Part shown: in pieces, positions 44,362 to 50,250 of the stretch | Position numbering within the stretch: position 1 is the first letter of the stretch | Layout of the letters: each line of letters begins with the position of its first letter | From: a virus | Virus record (IMG/VR): IMGVR_UViG_3300033183_000354 | Span: 1-64,000 of that record | Direction: 5' to 3' (one strand) | Length of the DNA stretch: 64,000 bases | Notes under the pieces: model-generated | Seen by the model: only the letters and a program-made list of their open reading frames with translations | Databases searched by the model: none | What the model was told of the DNA's origin: nothing | Made by a program: the position numbers and the translations under genes

Positions 44362-45024
44362 ATGAAAGCAAGATTAATTAGTTATAGTCAACCACCAAAG
44401 GACGGTCTCTATGTCGGTGACAATATCCAAGAACTTATCGCGTATTGCGCCCGTGTATCGAATCCCTCGAACCAAGATAACACGGAAACCTCAGAAAAAC
44501 TACTACGATATCTCATTAGAGAAAAACACTGGTCGCCATTTGAAATGGTTAGCGCTTGCTTAGAGATCGAAACAACTCGAGATATCGCAAGACAATTACT
44601 TCGACATCGTTCATTCTCTTTTCAAGAATTCTCTCAGCGATATGCAGATCCTACTCAAGATCTTCAATTTGAATTCAAAGAAGCTAGACTTCAAGACACG
44701 AAAAATAGACAAAATAGTTTAGATGTTAAAGACGTAGATTTACAGCTTGAATGGCTTAAGCAACAATCAGAAGTAGTAGTAAGAGCAAGAGAAAGTTATG
44801 AATGGGCAATTGAAAATGGTATCGCTAAAGAACAAGCTAGGGCAGTTTTGCCAGAAGGTATTATGCAATCTCGACTCTATGTTAATGGCACCATCAGGTC
44901 CTGGATCCATTATATCGAATTACGTTCAGGCCATGGAACACAAAAAGAACACATTCAGCTAGCCAAAGCTTGTGCTGACGCTATTGAACCTATCTTTCCG
45001 ATGATCAGAGAATTTTGTCATTAA
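44362..45024 (+). CDS. thyX: flavin-dependent thymidylate synthase
   Basis: HWSPFE, RHRSFSFQEFSQRY, KEQARAVLP, QKEH. Confidence 0.96.
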   Translation: MKARLISYSQPPKDGLYVGDNIQELIAYCARVSNPSNQDNTETSEKLLRYLIREKHWSPFEMVSACLEIETTRDIARQLLRHRSFSFQEFSQRYADPTQDLQFEFKEARLQDTKNRQNSLDVKDVDLQLEWLKQQSEVVVRARESYEWAIENGIAKEQARAVLPEGIMQSRLYVNGTIRSWIHYIELRSGHGTQKEHIQLAKACADAIEPIFPMIREFCH

Positions 45025-45130
45025 AAAATTACATCTAATTGTTTTTATTAAATAAAAAAATGCGTTTTTTTGTGTACATTCTTCTTAAATTGGGGTATTA
45101 TATATCTATAATCAAAGAGGAGTTAAGATT
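45023..45130 (+). repeat. early-promoter cassette, copy 2
   Basis: Similar to 33299-33407; TGTACA-N17-TATTAT and AAAGAGGAG. Confidence 0.75.
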
Positions 45131-45283
45131 ATGTTTAAGTTTGTTATTACTGCTAAGATGGAAAATGGCGAAGCATGGGAAACCGTACGTCATACCAAGC
45201 AAGGCCTTGATGAAGTTATCTCAAACATCTTAAAGGATAAAGCTGTAGTTTCATTCTCTGTTGAAGAGAAGAAATATGCTTAA
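45131..45283 (+). CDS. early hypothetical protein, 50 aa (not in ORF track)
   Basis: MFKFVITAKMENGEAWETVRHTKQGLDEVISNILKDKAVVSFSVEEKKYA after a strong RBS. Confidence 0.7.
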   Translation: MFKFVITAKMENGEAWETVRHTKQGLDEVISNILKDKAVVSFSVEEKKYA

Positions 45284-46252: not shown

Positions 46253-46852
46253 TTAGTTAGCCAGAGGGTTGTCTAAGGCTCTTTGTAGTTTCTTACTAAG
46301 ACGATCTTCTAGATCTTTCAGTTCACGTTCTACCTTTGCTTCGAGGTCATCCATACGACTTGTATTTGATTCTTGAAGTCTATTCGCTTTCTCATCATAA
46401 TCTACTTGCAATCTATCACGCTTATTCTCAAATCTTTCTTCGGCATTCTGCACTATTGAACGTACTTCAGCTTCCACTTTTCTTACTTCATCTTCTACAC
46501 GATCTGCAGTTTTTTCGATCGAAAGAATATCATCTCGTAGATCGCCTTTAATGGCTCTGGTATAGTCGACCGCTTCTTCTAATTTAGTTTCAATTACTTC
46601 CATGCGTTGCTCAAATCCGGCAATCTTTTCTTCATATTCTTGTTGTTGCTCAACAAACTCAATCGCCTGTTCAATCTTCTGATACATAAGGAAACCACCA
46701 TAAAGGGCGCCTACCACTGAACCAAGAACAGCAACAAGCGCCGATACAGTCATAAATGTAACCTTAATACCAAAGATACGGAACTCTTTATTCTTTAAGT
46801 TCTCAATACCCTCTTCCATATTTTCAAGTTCTTGACCTAGATCTTTAGTCAT
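46253..46852 (-). CDS. membrane-anchored coiled-coil protein
   Basis: One TM segment (VSALVAVLGSVVGALYGGF), long heptads, ends ALDNPLAN. Confidence 0.7.
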   Translation of the reverse strand: MTKDLGQELENMEEGIENLKNKEFRIFGIKVTFMTVSALVAVLGSVVGALYGGFLMYQKIEQAIEFVEQQQEYEEKIAGFEQRMEVIETKLEEAVDYTRAIKGDLRDDILSIEKTADRVEDEVRKVEAEVRSIVQNAEERFENKRDRLQVDYDEKANRLQESNTSRMDDLEAKVERELKDLEDRLSKKLQRALDNPLAN

Positions 46853-47249
46853 TGTTACCTTCCTGTAAATCTTGCAAGCGTTTGAGTTCCTGTTCTAATT
46901 TTAATATCTCTAGTCTTTTCTTTTTCAATTCAAGTTCATACAGAGTATTACAATTAATTCTTTCTGCAGGCCCGTCAAGTGGAATAGTTATTCTTGCGAA
47001 TACACCAACATCTTTTGAACTATTTCCGGAACTACTACTAAAAGGAGCTTCATAATTATCGATAATACCAGTTACTCCGAATTCCAAATTTGTTCCACCG
47101 CCAATTGAATTCTTACAATCTAATTCTCCAGCTCTAAAAGCATCTTGTCCATATGTATTACCAGCATTTGGCAATTGTAAGTTAAGTGAGCTACTTTCTG
47201 CAAGAGCTATTGATGGAATTAGCGATAATATAAAAATAATTTTCTTCAT
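46845..47249 (-). CDS. exported protein: Cys-flanked beta-hairpin plus coiled coil
   Basis: Signal peptide; DC..NLEFGV..VGVFARITIPL..NC; C-terminal heptads. Confidence 0.65.
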   Translation of the reverse strand: MKKIIFILSLIPSIALAESSSLNLQLPNAGNTYGQDAFRAGELDCKNSIGGGTNLEFGVTGIIDNYEAPFSSSSGNSSKDVGVFARITIPLDGPAERINCNTLYELELKKKRLEILKLEQELKRLQDLQEGNND

Positions 47250-47617
47250 TTAAATCTCGAGCATATCATTGAAGATATTGCTGGTGCATTATTGTTTCTC
47301 AATTTAGAAGTAGAACAAATATATTCAGTTCTTTCTCTATCTTGTTCACGAATATACACATCAAATTTTACTCTTGACAAATATTCAAGCTTGAATAATT
47401 TAAATGATGATACGAATGGAATTGGATTCCATTCTTCATCAAATACAGCAATCTCATAATATTCAACATCTTCTCTTTTATTGAACATCTCCATTTCGGT
47501 TACCAATAAACCGTCATGAATAGATGTTTTCCACTTTGGATATGTCGGTGTCATCTCATGCGCATACGCAAAAAATGGCATTAACATAATGAGAAATGTT
47601 AAAATATAATTTCTCAT
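47246..47617 (-). CDS. exported fimbrial-chaperone-like protein, 123 aa
   Basis: Start reassigned to ATG 47617, giving a signal peptide ending AYA; beta-rich HEMTPTY..MFN.R....YYEI.VFD; two C-terminal Cys. Confidence 0.45.
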   Translation of the reverse strand: MRNYILTFLIMLMPFFAYAHEMTPTYPKWKTSIHDGLLVTEMEMFNKREDVEYYEIAVFDEEWNPIPFVSSFKLFKLEYLSRVKFDVYIREQDRERTEYICSTSKLRNNNAPAISSMICSRFK

Positions 47618-47618
47618 A

Positions 47619-48122
47619 TTACTTTGCAATACACACTGCTTCGATATTTGCAGTGTATGTTCCACCAGGGAAAGCCTTATCGCCACCATAAGAGGCAGTC
47701 GAACTAGACTTAAACCAAGTTGATCCAGTCGCAGTCAAATCATATTGTGTTGTCTGACCAAATGTTACTTTATTTGTTTCGTATGAACCCATGTTAGTAG
47801 CATCACTTACAGCACTTACTTCAGTCGATCCAGTCCATGTGACCGTATCACTCAAAGAAGGACTTTGAGCAAATGAAGTTGGTGTAGTGATTTGAGCATA
47901 GTATGCATCAGCAAGTGTTACATCATATCTTACGATAGGCTGCACGCCGCCATCTGCAGCTGCAGTTGTAAGCGTATACGCATTTGGGTTTCCATAGACA
48001 CCAGGAGTGTCAGTAGTGATTACACAGCGGGATTGTACATTACCAGTAATTGGAACCTCTTCGGCATATACTGCTGCTGTCCCTAAACACATTACCCCGA
48101 CAAGAATTGCTTTTCTAAGCAT
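47619..48122 (-). CDS. exported pilin-like (fimbrial subunit-like) protein
   Basis: Signal peptide; VPITGNVQSRC N-terminal strand; C-terminal PGGTYTANIEAVC; Thr/Ser/Ala rich, about 150 aa mature. Confidence 0.55.
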   Translation of the reverse strand: MLRKAILVGVMCLGTAAVYAEEVPITGNVQSRCVITTDTPGVYGNPNAYTLTTAAADGGVQPIVRYDVTLADAYYAQITTPTSFAQSPSLSDTVTWTGSTEVSAVSDATNMGSYETNKVTFGQTTQYDLTATGSTWFKSSSTASYGGDKAFPGGTYTANIEAVCIAK

Positions 48123-48131
48123 TTACTTCTC

Positions 48132-49028
48132 CTAATTATTATACTGCATTTCGACCATTTCTTCATGCAGTAATTGTTGCGCAAGGCCGTTCCTTAATCC
48201 TTGCTTGTTTTCATCAATTTTCTTATCAACTAAAACTAAACTGTCTTTATATTCACCACCAGGAATAGAAGTTTTTAGATAGGTGTTATCGATTATAGTC
48301 TGTACAGCTCTATTCATAGCCAGTAACCGTAAATCTTGAGAAATCAATAATGCTGCATTTGTATCTGCTAGAGCTTGCAATCGATATTCTCTCTTACGCT
48401 TTTCTTCTTCCTCTTTTTCTTCTTCATCGATCTCTTCAAGCACTTCTTCGTTTTCTTCGATCGTAACTCTTTCTTCGTTGCTGAGAGTTACATACTCATC
48501 TTGTGTTGCATCATATATCGTACTTACATCAACTTCAGGTATCACTGGAATAGGAGCTTCATATCCAGGACAGTTAGGATCAAATTGCGGATCATAACAA
48601 GGATCAACTTTATAACTATAAATCACTGTCGCATCTTCGACTGTGCCAGTGCCTTCTACTTCAATGGATCCATCACCCCATAATTCTCGAGGCAGTTGAG
48701 GAATAACTGGAACAGCTTTCCTAATTTCAATTCCACCTGGTGCACCAGACCAGTCATCTGTTTCGCGAAAGATATATCCAGTGCCATTTGCATTTTCATT
48801 CTGTACGTGCACCTTCATATCGTCTTCGGTGTTCTTATTTGGTGTATAACTATAGATCACACCATTAATATCTAATCCAGGAGGAGTTGGCAAGACATTG
48901 TCCATACTCCATGTGTGGCCACCAGCCGCAGCATTTGGTGTAGTACCAAAGTATGGCTGAATGCTATCAGAATAAGAGTAAGAGGGTAAGAAGACCACCA
49001 ATACCGTAAGTAGCAGTTTCTTTAACAT
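48132..49028 (-). CDS. exported protein: beta domain, DPC..DPNCPGY motif, acidic coiled-coil tail
   Basis: Start likely ATG 49028 (MLKKLLLTVLVV signal peptide). Confidence 0.65.
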   Translation of the reverse strand: MLKKLLLTVLVVFLPSYSYSDSIQPYFGTTPNAAAGGHTWSMDNVLPTPPGLDINGVIYSYTPNKNTEDDMKVHVQNENANGTGYIFRETDDWSGAPGGIEIRKAVPVIPQLPRELWGDGSIEVEGTGTVEDATVIYSYKVDPCYDPQFDPNCPGYEAPIPVIPEVDVSTIYDATQDEYVTLSNEERVTIEENEEVLEEIDEEEKEEEEKRKREYRLQALADTNAALLISQDLRLLAMNRAVQTIIDNTYLKTSIPGGEYKDSLVLVDKKIDENKQGLRNGLAQQLLHEEMVEMQYNN

Positions 49029-49506
49029 CTCTTTTCTCCTCAGCCCCAACTTTTTCTAATTGAGATTCTTTATGAGATTCCCAACCAATCTTTGCAGCTT
49101 CACCAATCTGGCCTTCATAAGGGCATGGAGTGCCAGCCATCATCATGGCATCAAACACGTTCTTATCTTGACACATAACAGAAACAGCAGCGACTTTCAT
49201 TCCCATATCGTATAGAGTCTTAGCATTCTTAAGTCTTAAGCAATTCTCTTCTGTAAATGTAGTACCAGCAGAGATACCTAAAATCTGAGTTTGTACAGCA
49301 CCAGCGACACCAATAGTACATAAATCACTGTTGCTATTAGCGCCTAGTTGTGGAGAGATAGCTGATGGAGGAGGCGACTTTACAGTAGTTTCCATCGTTC
49401 CATTTGTTGTAACCGTGCTGTTGGTTGTCGATTCAGTTACGATCGGTTCTGCAATCGCCAATGATGAAAACATAATAAAGACAGCAGCTAATGCTAGTCT
49501 TTTCAT
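48967..49506 (-). CDS. exported Cys-containing protein with C-terminal hydrophobic anchor
   Basis: Signal peptide ending AIA; SPPPSAISP, DLC..GISAG..NC, AAVSVMCQD, AGTPCP; AGGAG RBS. Confidence 0.7.
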   Translation of the reverse strand: MKRLALAAVFIMFSSLAIAEPIVTESTTNSTVTTNGTMETTVKSPPPSAISPQLGANSNSDLCTIGVAGAVQTQILGISAGTTFTEENCLRLKNAKTLYDMGMKVAAVSVMCQDKNVFDAMMMAGTPCPYEGQIGEAAKIGWESHKESQLEKVGAEEKRDVKETATYGIGGLLTLLLLF

Positions 49507-49535: not shown

Positions 49536-49616
49536 TAGTGTCAATTTTTTGACACTAACAATAATTTGTTATGTTCAATTGTCATAATATTGACCAATTA
49601 TATCAGTATTTATATG

Positions 49617-49652
49617 TTTACAAACACAGAAAACTGTAGTATAATATAAATA
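49617..49652 (+). promoter_or_regulatory. tandem sigma70-like and late promoters for the tmRNA
   Basis: TTTACA-N17-TATAAT (49617-49645) overlapping TATAAATA (49645-49652). Confidence 0.75.
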
Positions 49653-49655
49653 CAA

Positions 49656-50043
49656 TTGTAGTGATGAAGCAGACCGAAAGATAGACTGGACACGGGGGCA
49701 GTACCCGTCAGCTCCACCATAAACACACGGTGAATGACATGCGTATCAAATTAAATTCAGGCGATGAGTATGATGCACTCACAAAAGCCAAGAAATATTT
49801 TAAGTGGCGCGCAGGTCAACGCAAAAAGATCAAGCGAGGCTACAATAAAAGACTTCGCCGTGTGCTTATGATGGGGCTGAACTAGGATCGACAGGTATTG
49901 AATAGGGAAGTGGAGCTATCCCGCGCAAGCTGGGTTAACGCAAGAACTAAGTAACTGCAAACGATAACTTTGCACCTGTAGATTACGCTATCGCAGCATA
50001 ATCTAGCGGGCCAGTCCGGAGCCTAGGAACAGAATCCGGACAC
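49656..50043 (+). ncRNA. ssrA: circularly permuted two-piece tmRNA, alphaproteobacterial type
   Basis: Acceptor piece: T-arm acggg-GGCAGTA-cccgt, then cagctcc-A-CCA ending at 49719. Coding piece starts GGGGCTGA at 49873, giving G3:U70. Tag ANDNFAPVDYAIAA* at 49957-50001; terminal hairpin 50014-50041. Outer ends approximate. Confidence 0.93.
49739..49885 (+). CDS. 48-aa highly basic protein nested in the tmRNA intervening segment (not in ORF track)
   Basis: MRIKLNSGDEYDALTKAKKYFKWRAGQRKKIKRGYNKRLRRVLMMGLN; GGTGA RBS 5 nt upstream. Confidence 0.6.
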   Translation: MRIKLNSGDEYDALTKAKKYFKWRAGQRKKIKRGYNKRLRRVLMMGLN

Positions 50044-50061
50044 TTAACTTGGAGATATATA

Positions 50062-50250
50062 ATGATAGCAGCAGTTTTATTTGCAATGTTGTTTGTTGCA
50101 GACAATAGAGAGTTTTTTGACACAGTTGAAGAGCAACAAAAACAAGGATATAAGTGGACGAAAGTTGGAAAGAGCCAACCGTCCGGAACACCAGCACTTG
50201 TAATGAAGAATACCAATGAAGAGTACATCTACTACAGATTGGAAAAGTAA
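50062..50250 (+). CDS. small membrane/exported protein
   Basis: GGAG RBS; hydrophobic N-terminus. Confidence 0.65.
   Translation: MIAAVLFAMLFVADNREFFDTVEEQQKQGYKWTKVGKSQPSGTPALVMKNTNEEYIYYRLEK

What the first reader, a model, noticed from the sequence alone, without database searches (positions are those of the whole stretch)
49709..49885. A protein-coding gene hidden in the excised loop of a phage two-piece tmRNA
Seen: between the CCA end (49719) and the GGGGCUG 5' end (49873) lies a 153-nt intervening segment. It is closed by an extension of the acceptor stem: cataaacacacggtgaa pairs with ttcgccgtgtgcttatg. The loop is almost entirely an ORF for a 48-aa K/R-rich protein. Its RBS (GGTGA) is buried in the stem, and its stop codon lies inside the mature tmRNA coding piece. 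Established: intervening segments of permuted tmRNAs are removed by RNase P and 3' processing and are normally treated as non-coding. Inference: translation and tmRNA maturation compete, and RNase P cleavage at 49873 would leave the ORF without a stop codon, i.e. a non-stop mRNA and substrate of the tmRNA it came from. This could be a self-regulating ribosome-rescue module with a small RNA- or ribosome-binding protein.
Basis: partly seen in the sequence, partly recalled or inferred. Interest (0 to 1): 0.9.

Follow-up and report, generated by a model that had tools for sequence, protein, structure and literature searches.

The report
Protein gene inside phage tmRNA spacer
The piece of RNA that is cut out when this T4-like marine phage's two-piece ribosome-rescue RNA (tmRNA) matures carries a real, selected 48-codon gene for a small basic phage protein, so a supposedly disposable spacer also serves as a messenger; the proposed self-regulating 'non-stop' circuit remains possible but is not a general feature of this arrangement.

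Summary
Window 49658-50001 is a circularly permuted (two-piece) tmRNA gene in a complete 152.7-kb T4-like phage genome. Its 153-nt intervening segment (49720-49872) is closed by an extension of the acceptor stem. It is almost filled by a 48-codon ORF (49739-49885) whose stop lies 11-13 nt inside the mature coding piece.

The ORF is a real gene. It belongs to a large, almost purely viral family of about 50-aa basic proteins (phrog_16066; 211 clusters at 50% identity), and most members are ordinary free-standing genes. At least 24 copies in four sub-lineages sit in tmRNA spacers. All complete copies are intact, with dN/dS about 0.05-0.2.

- One spacer lineage has its own stop codon inside the loop.
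- One relative sits just upstream of a tmRNA rather than inside it.
- Three phage genomes rated 97-100% complete have the gene but no permuted tmRNA.

In a sample of 104 phage tmRNA spacers, 21 of the 29 long ones are ORF-filled by unrelated small genes.

I found no paper that describes this. Earlier AI notes of this scan saw the same phenomenon with other gene families on other DNA. The protein's function is unknown.

The parts
49617..49645 (+). Sigma-70-type promoter-like site TTTACA-17-TATAAT upstream of the pre-tmRNA
   Evidence: 11 of 12 matches; the same arrangement is seen in relative L005
49645..49652 (+). T4-type late promoter motif TATAAATA overlapping the -10 box
   Evidence: clade B relatives carry TATAAATA at the same relative position
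49658..49719 (+). tmRNA acceptor piece: P2 strand, T arm (stem 49692-49696 / 49704-49708), acceptor 3' strand 49709-49715, ACCA 49716-49719
   Evidence: T stem and acceptor stem 100% paired with compensatory changes; G3:U70 invariant
49720..49872 (+). Intervening segment (spacer) removed on maturation, 153 nt
49719..49734 (+). 5' strand of the loop-closing extension of the acceptor stem; contains the SD GGTGA at 49729-49733
49739..49885 (+). 48-codon gene (P0002), a member of the phrog_16066-like small basic phage protein family; stop TAG at 49883-49885
49854..49869 (+). 3' strand of the loop-closing stem; also encodes the non-conserved C-terminal residues of the protein
49873..50044 (+). tmRNA coding piece: acceptor 5' strand GGGGCTG, then the tag reading frame 49957-50001 (ANDNFAPVDYAIAA plus stop)
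50062..50250 (+). Next gene (62 aa, unknown function). It starts 18 nt after the tmRNA model ends and no terminator-like site was found between them, so it is probably co-transcribed.

Best explanation
This complete T4-like marine phage genome carries a functional alphaproteobacterial-type two-piece tmRNA gene. The spacer between its acceptor piece and its coding piece is used as a slot for a small protein gene.

The gene has no promoter of its own that I could see. It would be transcribed as part of the pre-tmRNA from an early sigma-70-like promoter and an overlapping T4-type late promoter. I infer that it is translated from the nascent or unprocessed precursor. The SD and start codon emerge about 120-130 nt before the 3' strand of the closing stem is made, so a ribosome can load first. 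It would then read through the stem and stop at the UAG 11 nt inside the tmRNA. After that the RNA refolds, and RNase P and 3' trimming release the two tmRNA pieces.

The product is a 48-aa, strongly basic, three-helix protein. It belongs to a widespread viral family that usually sits as a free-standing gene among early and replication genes. It most likely binds nucleic acid. Its function does not depend on a phage tmRNA.

What is shown: the tmRNA, the stem, the coding status and selection of the ORF, its family, and that phage tmRNA spacers commonly hold ORFs.
What is inferred: use of the tmRNA promoters, translation from the precursor, and nucleic-acid binding.
For: The tmRNA is real and functional in form.
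- Rfam scores it at 103.9 bits.
- Across 14 spacer copies, the T stem, the acceptor stem and the 11-bp extension are 97% paired, and 7 pairs change on both sides. G3:U70 is invariant.
- The tag frame is intact.

The ORF is a gene.
- It hits phrog_16066 at E 1.6e-7, 52 metagenome proteins and 211 clusters at 50% identity.
- There are 278 tblastn relatives in viral contigs and 394 in metagenome contigs.
- At least 24 spacer-embedded copies fall into four sub-lineages. All complete copies are intact.
- Pairwise dN/dS is 0.05-0.2 at dS from 0.5 to above 2. For the window against L004 there are 11 synonymous and 5 non-synonymous differences.
- All 14 aligned spacer copies have a purine-rich SD-like word 5-9 nt before the start codon.

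The protein folds.
- The AlphaFold2 model has pLDDT 89.6 with helices at 8-14, 16-20 and 27-47.

The promoters are present.

The arrangement is general.
- In 104 unique phage tmRNA spacers, 29 are 100 nt or longer.
- Of those 29, 21 are at least 70% ORF-filled. Mean coverage is 0.76, against 0.46 in shuffles.
- Several unrelated ORF families recur in these spacers.

The family does not depend on a phage tmRNA.
- Thirty-eight of 40 sampled free-standing loci have no RNA gene within about 1.2-1.5 kb.
- Three phage genomes rated 97-100% complete have the gene but no permuted tmRNA.
- Only 7 relatives were found in 185,579 prokaryote genomes.
Against: There is no expression data.

The SD is paired in the folded precursor of this phage, which would hinder translation once the stem forms. 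If the excised spacer rather than the precursor were the main template, the message would lack a stop codon and the product would be tagged for degradation.

The function is unknown. There is no Pfam match, no match to solved structures by sequence, and no convincing fold match. The best Z is 4.2, among helix-turn-helix-like and unrelated chains.

Some linkage to stable-RNA genes exists: four spacer lineages, one copy directly upstream of a tmRNA (L211) and one inside a cluster of six tRNA genes (L081). A link to translation is therefore not excluded.
Confidence: 0.75

Rival explanations
1. ArfA-like feedback. RNase P cleavage at 49873 turns the spacer into a non-stop mRNA. Its product is tagged by tmRNA and degraded, so stable protein accumulates only when trans-translation or processing is limiting. 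The protein acts on ribosomes or on the tmRNA.
For: In the window and in three of the four spacer lineages the only in-frame stop lies inside the mature tmRNA. The ORF's 3' end lies in a long stem, as in arfA, whose mRNA is cut by RNase III in a stem to give a non-stop message (PMC3989581). The protein is small and very basic. The gene is linked to tmRNA or tRNA genes in several lineages.
Against: The L284 lineage (clusters P0018 and P0049) has its own TAA inside the spacer, 36 nt before the 5' end. The stop position and reading frame relative to the tmRNA differ between lineages, and the C-terminal residues are not conserved. Most family members are free-standing with normal stops, and three phage genomes rated 97-100% complete have the gene but no permuted tmRNA. 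There is no sequence match to ArfA or any ribosome-rescue family. The absence of an in-loop stop is also expected simply because the last codons double as the 3' strand of the stem.
Confidence: 0.12
2. Recombining passenger cassette. The spacer gene is a hitch-hiker that spreads between divergent phage tmRNA genes by homologous recombination through the conserved spacer ends. It sits there because the spacer tolerates insertions and is strongly transcribed, not because of any tie to tmRNA function. This is compatible with the best explanation and concerns origin rather than mechanism.
For: Within lineages the spacer is more conserved (88-99% nucleotide identity) than the mature tmRNA parts beside it (60-90%). 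For example, L014 against L048 gives 99% in the spacer, 83% in the acceptor piece and 77% in the coding piece. Outside the tmRNA gene the loci hardly align at all by blastn. Acceptor stems differ by compensatory changes between tmRNAs that share near-identical spacers. Unrelated genes occupy the same slot in other phages.
Against: No nuclease or recombinase is encoded here. Strong purifying selection on a short, highly constrained protein, together with fast-evolving tmRNA regions, could give the same identity pattern. The protein tree is too poorly resolved to show transfers.
Confidence: 0.3
3. The ORF is a chance or decayed reading frame, and the spacer is non-coding RNA conserved for processing only.
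For: A 48-codon open frame in 153 nt is not very rare by itself. Shuffled long spacers are on average 46% covered by their longest ORF.
Against: Homologues exist as free-standing genes in many phages, down to E 1e-13 among representative clusters. dN/dS is 0.05-0.2 with saturated dS between lineages. All complete spacer copies seen are intact. The predicted fold is confident.
Confidence: 0.02

Closest known systems
Circularly permuted (two-piece) tmRNA genes of Alphaproteobacteria and of marine T4-like phages, e.g. Methylophilales phage Melnitz and the pelagimyophages (Rfam RF01849, RF04321; PMC9004378)
   Same: It has the same gene order: acceptor piece ending in CCA, then the intervening segment, then the coding piece with the tag frame. 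It has the same alpha-type sequence, and blastn finds 77% identity to the Melnitz ssrA over the tRNA-like part. It lies in a T4-like marine phage.
   Different: The published description of the phage tmRNAs (read) treats ssrA as an RNA gene and mentions no coding sequence in the spacer. Here the spacer is a selected protein gene. The Melnitz spacer itself holds a different, unannotated 54-58-codon ORF.
Intervening sequence of 23S rRNA carrying the S23p ORF (Coxiella burnetii, Leptospira; PMC4990558)
   Same: An ORF lies inside a stem-closed segment that is excised from a stable-RNA precursor without re-ligation, which leaves a fragmented but functional RNA.
   Different: The host RNA differs (23S rRNA helix 45, cut by RNase III) and the protein family is unrelated. 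According to that paper's abstract, S23p appears not to be made in vivo. Here the ORF shows strong purifying selection and has many free-standing relatives, and its stop codon lies inside the mature RNA.
ArfA and its non-stop mRNA (E. coli; PMC3989581)
   Same: It is a small basic protein whose ORF ends in a stem. Endonucleolytic cleavage of that stem would leave a message without a stop codon, which is a natural tmRNA substrate.
   Different: There is no sequence similarity. Cleavage would be by RNase P as part of tmRNA maturation rather than by RNase III. One spacer lineage and all free-standing relatives keep a normal stop. No rescue function has been shown.
phrog_16066 (e.g. Mycobacterium phage Thyatira gp35, hypothetical protein) and an unannotated ORF of Puniceispirillum phage HMO-2011
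   Same: It is the same protein family. The profile hits are E 1.6e-7 for the window protein and 5e-34 for gp35, and there is 60% identity over 30 aa to the HMO-2011 ORF.
   Different: Those genes are free-standing, next to an MRE11-type nuclease gene or a ribonucleotide reductase gene, with their own stops and no tmRNA.
Small ORFs co-transcribed with stable RNAs in tRNA clusters of T4-like phages (from my own knowledge; not tested beyond locus L081)
   Same: A small gene shares a precursor transcript with stable RNA. In L081 a member of this very family lies among six tRNA genes.
   Different: Here the gene is nested between the two halves of one RNA gene. It overlaps that gene's processing stem and its mature 5' end.

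Membership tests
Permuted two-piece tmRNA (Rfam RF04321 / RF01849) | Covariance-model score above the curated gathering score | tested here: met
   103.9 bits against a gathering score of 47, and 96.9 bits against 50 (confirmed on the whole genome)
Permuted two-piece tmRNA (Rfam RF04321 / RF01849) | tRNA-Ala-like acceptor stem with G3:U70, a T arm and an encoded CCA end, supported by covariation | tested here: met
   All 7 acceptor pairs and 5 T-stem pairs are paired in 14 sequences. Five of those pairs show changes on both sides. The U:G pair is invariant.
Permuted two-piece tmRNA (Rfam RF04321 / RF01849) | Tag reading frame starting at an Ala codon and ending in hydrophobic Ala-Ala plus a stop | tested here: met
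   49957-50001 translates to ANDNFAPVDYAIAA followed by a stop
Permuted two-piece tmRNA (Rfam RF04321 / RF01849) | The precursor is actually processed into two RNA pieces, and the spacer is removed | not testable with these tools
   This needs RNA end mapping.
phrog_16066-like small basic phage protein | Significant profile match and shared conserved motif over the whole core | tested here: met
   E 1.6e-7 over residues 8-43. Nearly invariant positions are E10, D12, G26, K32, R38 and R40 across 137 members.
ArfA (Pfam PF03889) | Sequence membership in the ArfA family | tested here: not met
   No Pfam family matches the window protein at E <= 1. ArfA is not among the families matched by any of the 137 members at E <= 0.1.
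ArfA (Pfam PF03889) | Active protein made from a cleaved, non-stop mRNA and repressed by trans-translation | not testable with these tools
   The sequence predicts loss of the stop after RNase P cleavage in this phage, but not in the L284 lineage. There is no expression data.
23S rRNA IVS protein (S23p) | Sequence membership in the S23p family | tested here: not met
   No Pfam match. The resemblance is in gene architecture only.
Ribosomal proteins (bS21, bL35 and others) | Profile or fold match to a ribosomal protein family | tested here: inconclusive
   One of 137 members gives a weak Ribosomal_L35p match at E 0.0044, and there is no match for the window protein. The best structural Z is 4.2, with no ribosomal protein standing out.

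The most novel reading that the evidence does not exclude
The nesting works as a timing or sensing device. Stable protein can be made only from pre-tmRNA that has not yet been cut. The excised spacer is a non-stop message whose product is tagged by the very tmRNA it came from. The level of this small basic protein would then report the balance between tmRNA processing, trans-translation capacity and translation during infection. This is ArfA-like logic built into a phage tmRNA gene.
Probability: 0.12. Interest if true: 0.85.

Novelty: new variant of a known kind. Interest (0 to 1): 0.66.

Why it matters
tmRNA genes are annotated as pure RNA genes, and the spacer of two-piece tmRNAs is treated as discarded. 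Showing that phages routinely place selected protein genes there means three things.
- Real phage genes are being missed by annotation. The Melnitz and HMO-2011 records lack these ORFs.
- One transcript must be both a translated messenger and a precursor that folds into a precise RNase P substrate. This is a compact, testable case of competition between translation and RNA processing.
- A very widespread but uncharacterised family of about 50-aa basic phage proteins gets a first genomic handle.

If the non-stop coupling were real, it would be a new regulatory circuit in ribosome rescue.

Tried and rejected
- ARAGORN found no tmRNA in the window. Rfam covariance models did, so ARAGORN's blank was set aside.
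- Function searches found nothing usable. Pfam gave nothing for the protein or for 137 relatives beyond scattered weak hits. A profile against solved-structure sequences gave only Rv1738 at E 0.3. Foldseek against the PDB gave no match. VIA-align against 48,161 chains gave a best Z of 4.2, with sigma region 4 and LuxR-type helix-turn-helix domains among many unrelated rows. The protein atlas gave only viral hypotheticals.
- A superficial likeness to bS21 and to ArfA that I recalled from memory was not borne out by any search, and I dropped it.
- My regex and nhmmer screens for nearby tmRNAs were too insensitive. They missed L211 and L284, so I relied on Rfam scans of 40 loci.
- The maximum-likelihood tree of 80 family members has only 43 columns and leaves the number of captures into spacers unresolved. 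The spacer copies form a grade next to the tmRNA-adjacent copy L211.
- Literature searches for ORFs in tmRNA intervening segments returned nothing relevant. The tmRNA-website paper (PMC4131195) does not discuss spacers.
- I did not run complex prediction because no specific binding partner is claimed.

Full report
**1. What is at the site**

Rfam finds a circularly permuted tmRNA at 49658-50001 (tmRNA_permuted, 103.9 bits, gathering score 47). The alphaproteobacterial model matches at 49613-50044 (96.9 bits). ARAGORN reports nothing.

Read from the sequence, the gene runs in this order:
- a P2 strand and T arm;
- the acceptor 3' strand, 49709-49715;
- ACCA ending at 49719;
- 153 nt of spacer, 49720-49872;
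- the mature 5' end GGGGCTG at 49873;
- the tag frame 49957-50001, which reads ANDNFAPVDYAIAA then a stop.

A near-consensus sigma-70-type promoter (TTTACA-17-TATAAT, 49617-49645) overlaps a T4-type late motif, TATAAATA, at 49645-49652.

The window belongs to a complete 152.7-kb virus record with direct terminal repeats. The genome encodes T4-like tail sheath, portal, major head protein, large terminase, family-B DNA polymerase and DnaB-like helicase. Its closest isolate relatives by ssrA are the Melnitz phages of OM43.

**2.

Bases 49719-49734 pair with 49854-49869 (16 positions, one A.C mismatch, one G.U pair) and extend the acceptor stem. The minimum-free-energy fold of 49706-49885 forms exactly this closure, with z = -5.8.

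The ORF runs from ATG 49739 to TAG 49883-49885 and gives 48 residues, many of them Lys or Arg. GGTGA at 49729-49733 lies 5 nt upstream of the start and within the stem. The stop is at +11 to +13 of the mature coding piece.

**3. The ORF is a real gene**

It has many homologues:
- It matches phrog_16066 at E 1.6e-7. The type member, Mycobacterium phage Thyatira gp35, scores 5e-34.
- An unannotated 53-codon ORF of Puniceispirillum phage HMO-2011 is a clear relative.
- The 5.8-billion-protein search gave 52 homologues.
- The exhaustive search of 50%-identity representatives gave 211 clusters at E <= 1e-3.
- Back-translated scans gave 278 confirmed relatives in viral contigs and 394 in metagenome contigs.
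- Only 7 relatives were found in 185,579 prokaryote genomes, all in MAG contigs. The family is therefore essentially viral.

Across 137 members E10, D12, G26, K32, R38 and R40 are nearly invariant. AlphaFold2 with that alignment gives a confident small fold (pLDDT 89.6) with helices at 8-14, 16-20 and a long basic helix at 27-47.

**4. Where family members sit**

Of 124 fetched loci with a recognisable motif, 22 lie in tmRNA spacers by sequence signatures. Rfam added L284. With the window that makes at least 24 spacer copies, in four sub-lineages:
- **Lineage A:** the window, L004-L007 and L204/205/208. The stop is at the conserved UAG at +11 to +13, or further downstream where that UAG is absent.
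- **Lineage B:** L014, L018, L027, L028, L037, L041, L042, L045, L048, L057, L219, L221 and L226. The frame is shifted by one, and the stop lies about 40 nt to more than 100 nt inside the tmRNA.
- **Lineage C:** L206 and L209.
- **Lineage D:** L284 (clusters P0018 and P0049). It has its own TAA inside the spacer, 36 nt before GGGG.

In L211 the gene is free-standing and lies directly upstream of a short-spacer permuted tmRNA (100.4 bits). In L081 it lies among six tRNA genes.

The remaining 38 of 40 free-standing loci scanned with Rfam have no RNA gene within about 1.2-1.5 kb. Three phage genomes rated 97-100% complete that carry the free-standing gene have no permuted tmRNA. Free-standing copies lie among small early genes and replication genes. 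The window's genome has only this one copy.

**5. Selection**

All complete spacer copies are intact. Nei-Gojobori estimates over 41 codons give dN/dS of 0.05-0.2, with dS from 0.5 to above 2 between lineages. The window against L004 shows 11 synonymous and 5 non-synonymous differences. L206 against L209 shows 12 and 3.

All 14 aligned spacer copies have an SD-like purine word 5-9 nt before the start codon. Burial of the SD in the stem is full in lineage A and only marginal in B and C.

The T stem, the acceptor stem and an 11-bp stretch of the extension are 97% paired in 14 sequences, and 7 pairs change on both sides. These are independently evolving, structurally sound tmRNAs.

**6. An unexpected pattern**

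Within lineages the spacer is the most conserved part of the gene. It shows 88-99% nucleotide identity, against 60-90% for the flanking mature tmRNA segments. Outside the tmRNA gene the loci hardly align by blastn. This fits a highly constrained protein combined with exchange of the spacer cassette between diverged tmRNA genes by recombination. The 43-column protein tree cannot settle this.

**7. Generality**

A pattern scan for alpha-type tmRNA 5' ends in viral contigs gave 120 loci, with 104 unique spacers of 5-277 nt. Of the 29 spacers that are 100 nt or longer, 21 are at least 70% filled by one ORF. Mean coverage is 0.76, against 0.46 for shuffled spacers.

Several unrelated ORF families recur: a Trp-rich 45-47-aa family (L091, L129, L165), a membrane peptide (L111, L146, L150, L199) and the Melnitz type (L001, L164).

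The Melnitz paper describes the phage two-piece tmRNA but no spacer ORF. Literature searches found no description of such ORFs.

Earlier AI notes of this scan report the same phenomenon with other gene families on other DNA. I used them as leads only. From them I took the comparison with the ORF-bearing 23S rRNA intervening sequence, and I checked it in PMC4990558.

**8. Mechanism**

The best-supported reading is that the spacer is a permissive, strongly transcribed slot, and that the pre-tmRNA doubles as the mRNA. The SD and start codon are transcribed about 120-130 nt before their pairing partner. Co-transcriptional ribosome loading is therefore plausible. The ribosome would melt the stem, end at the UAG inside the tmRNA and leave, and the RNA would then refold for RNase P. 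This step is inferred, not shown.

ArfA is indeed regulated through a cleaved non-stop message (PMC3989581). As a selected design, however, the model is weakened by four points:
- Lineage D has an in-loop stop.
- The frames and stop positions vary between lineages.
- The stem-encoded tail of the protein is not conserved.
- Most family members have nothing to do with a phage tmRNA.

I give the ArfA-like model about 0.12.

The protein's function is unknown. I commit to a small nucleic-acid-binding protein of the early or replication gene set, based on its charge, its long basic helix and weak helix-turn-helix-like structural rows. This is the least secure part of the report.

**9. Verdict**

This is a new variant of a known kind: ORFs inside excised spacers or introns of stable RNAs. 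I found no paper that describes it for tmRNA. It has clear consequences for annotation and offers a testable question about how translation and RNA processing interact.

Noticed in passing
L001:1590-1766 (Methylophilales phage Melnitz-1, MZ577095.1, inside the annotated tmRNA 44732-45184): The Melnitz tmRNA spacer holds a different, unannotated ORF of 54-58 codons that also reads into the tmRNA 5' end. A clear relative fills the spacer of viral contig L164.
   Followed up: partly
L002:1495-1656 (Puniceispirillum phage HMO-2011, GU557055.1 15465-15626): An unannotated 53-codon member of the same small basic protein family lies between the ribonucleotide reductase gene and gene 19 of a reference phage genome.
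   Followed up: partly
L091, L129, L165; L111, L146, L150, L199; L153; L088; L142 (spacers of other phage tmRNAs): Other recurrent spacer ORF families were seen. One is Trp-rich, 45-47 aa. One is a membrane peptide of about 40-50 aa that stops at the TGA just before the mature 5' end. One is a Cys- and Arg-rich 55-aa ORF. Two are 67-73-aa ORFs. None was examined for selection.
   Followed up: no
L211:938-1090 and 1144-1373: The closest free-standing relative of the spacer copies sits with its own stop about 55 nt upstream of a short-spacer permuted tmRNA. It is a possible intermediate between the adjacent and the nested arrangement.
   Followed up: partly
L081:1501-1665: A family member lies in the middle of a cluster of six tRNA genes, which is another case of this gene sharing a stable-RNA region.
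   Followed up: no
P0051 (metagenome protein, shown): In one relative the called spacer ORF runs on in frame through the tmRNA to the end of the tag reading frame, so a read-through product would end in the degradation tag itself.
   Followed up: no
window 46845-49506, minus strand: A block of tightly packed minus-strand genes, most with signal-peptide-like N-termini, ends just upstream of the tmRNA promoter. First-stage notes call it a pilin or chaperone-like late operon, and the Melnitz paper describes curli-type genes near ssrA.
   Followed up: no
window 49658-50044: ARAGORN fails to call this permuted tmRNA although Rfam scores it above 100 bits. Surveys of phage tmRNAs that rely on ARAGORN alone may undercount those with long, ORF-filled spacers.
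   Followed up: partly
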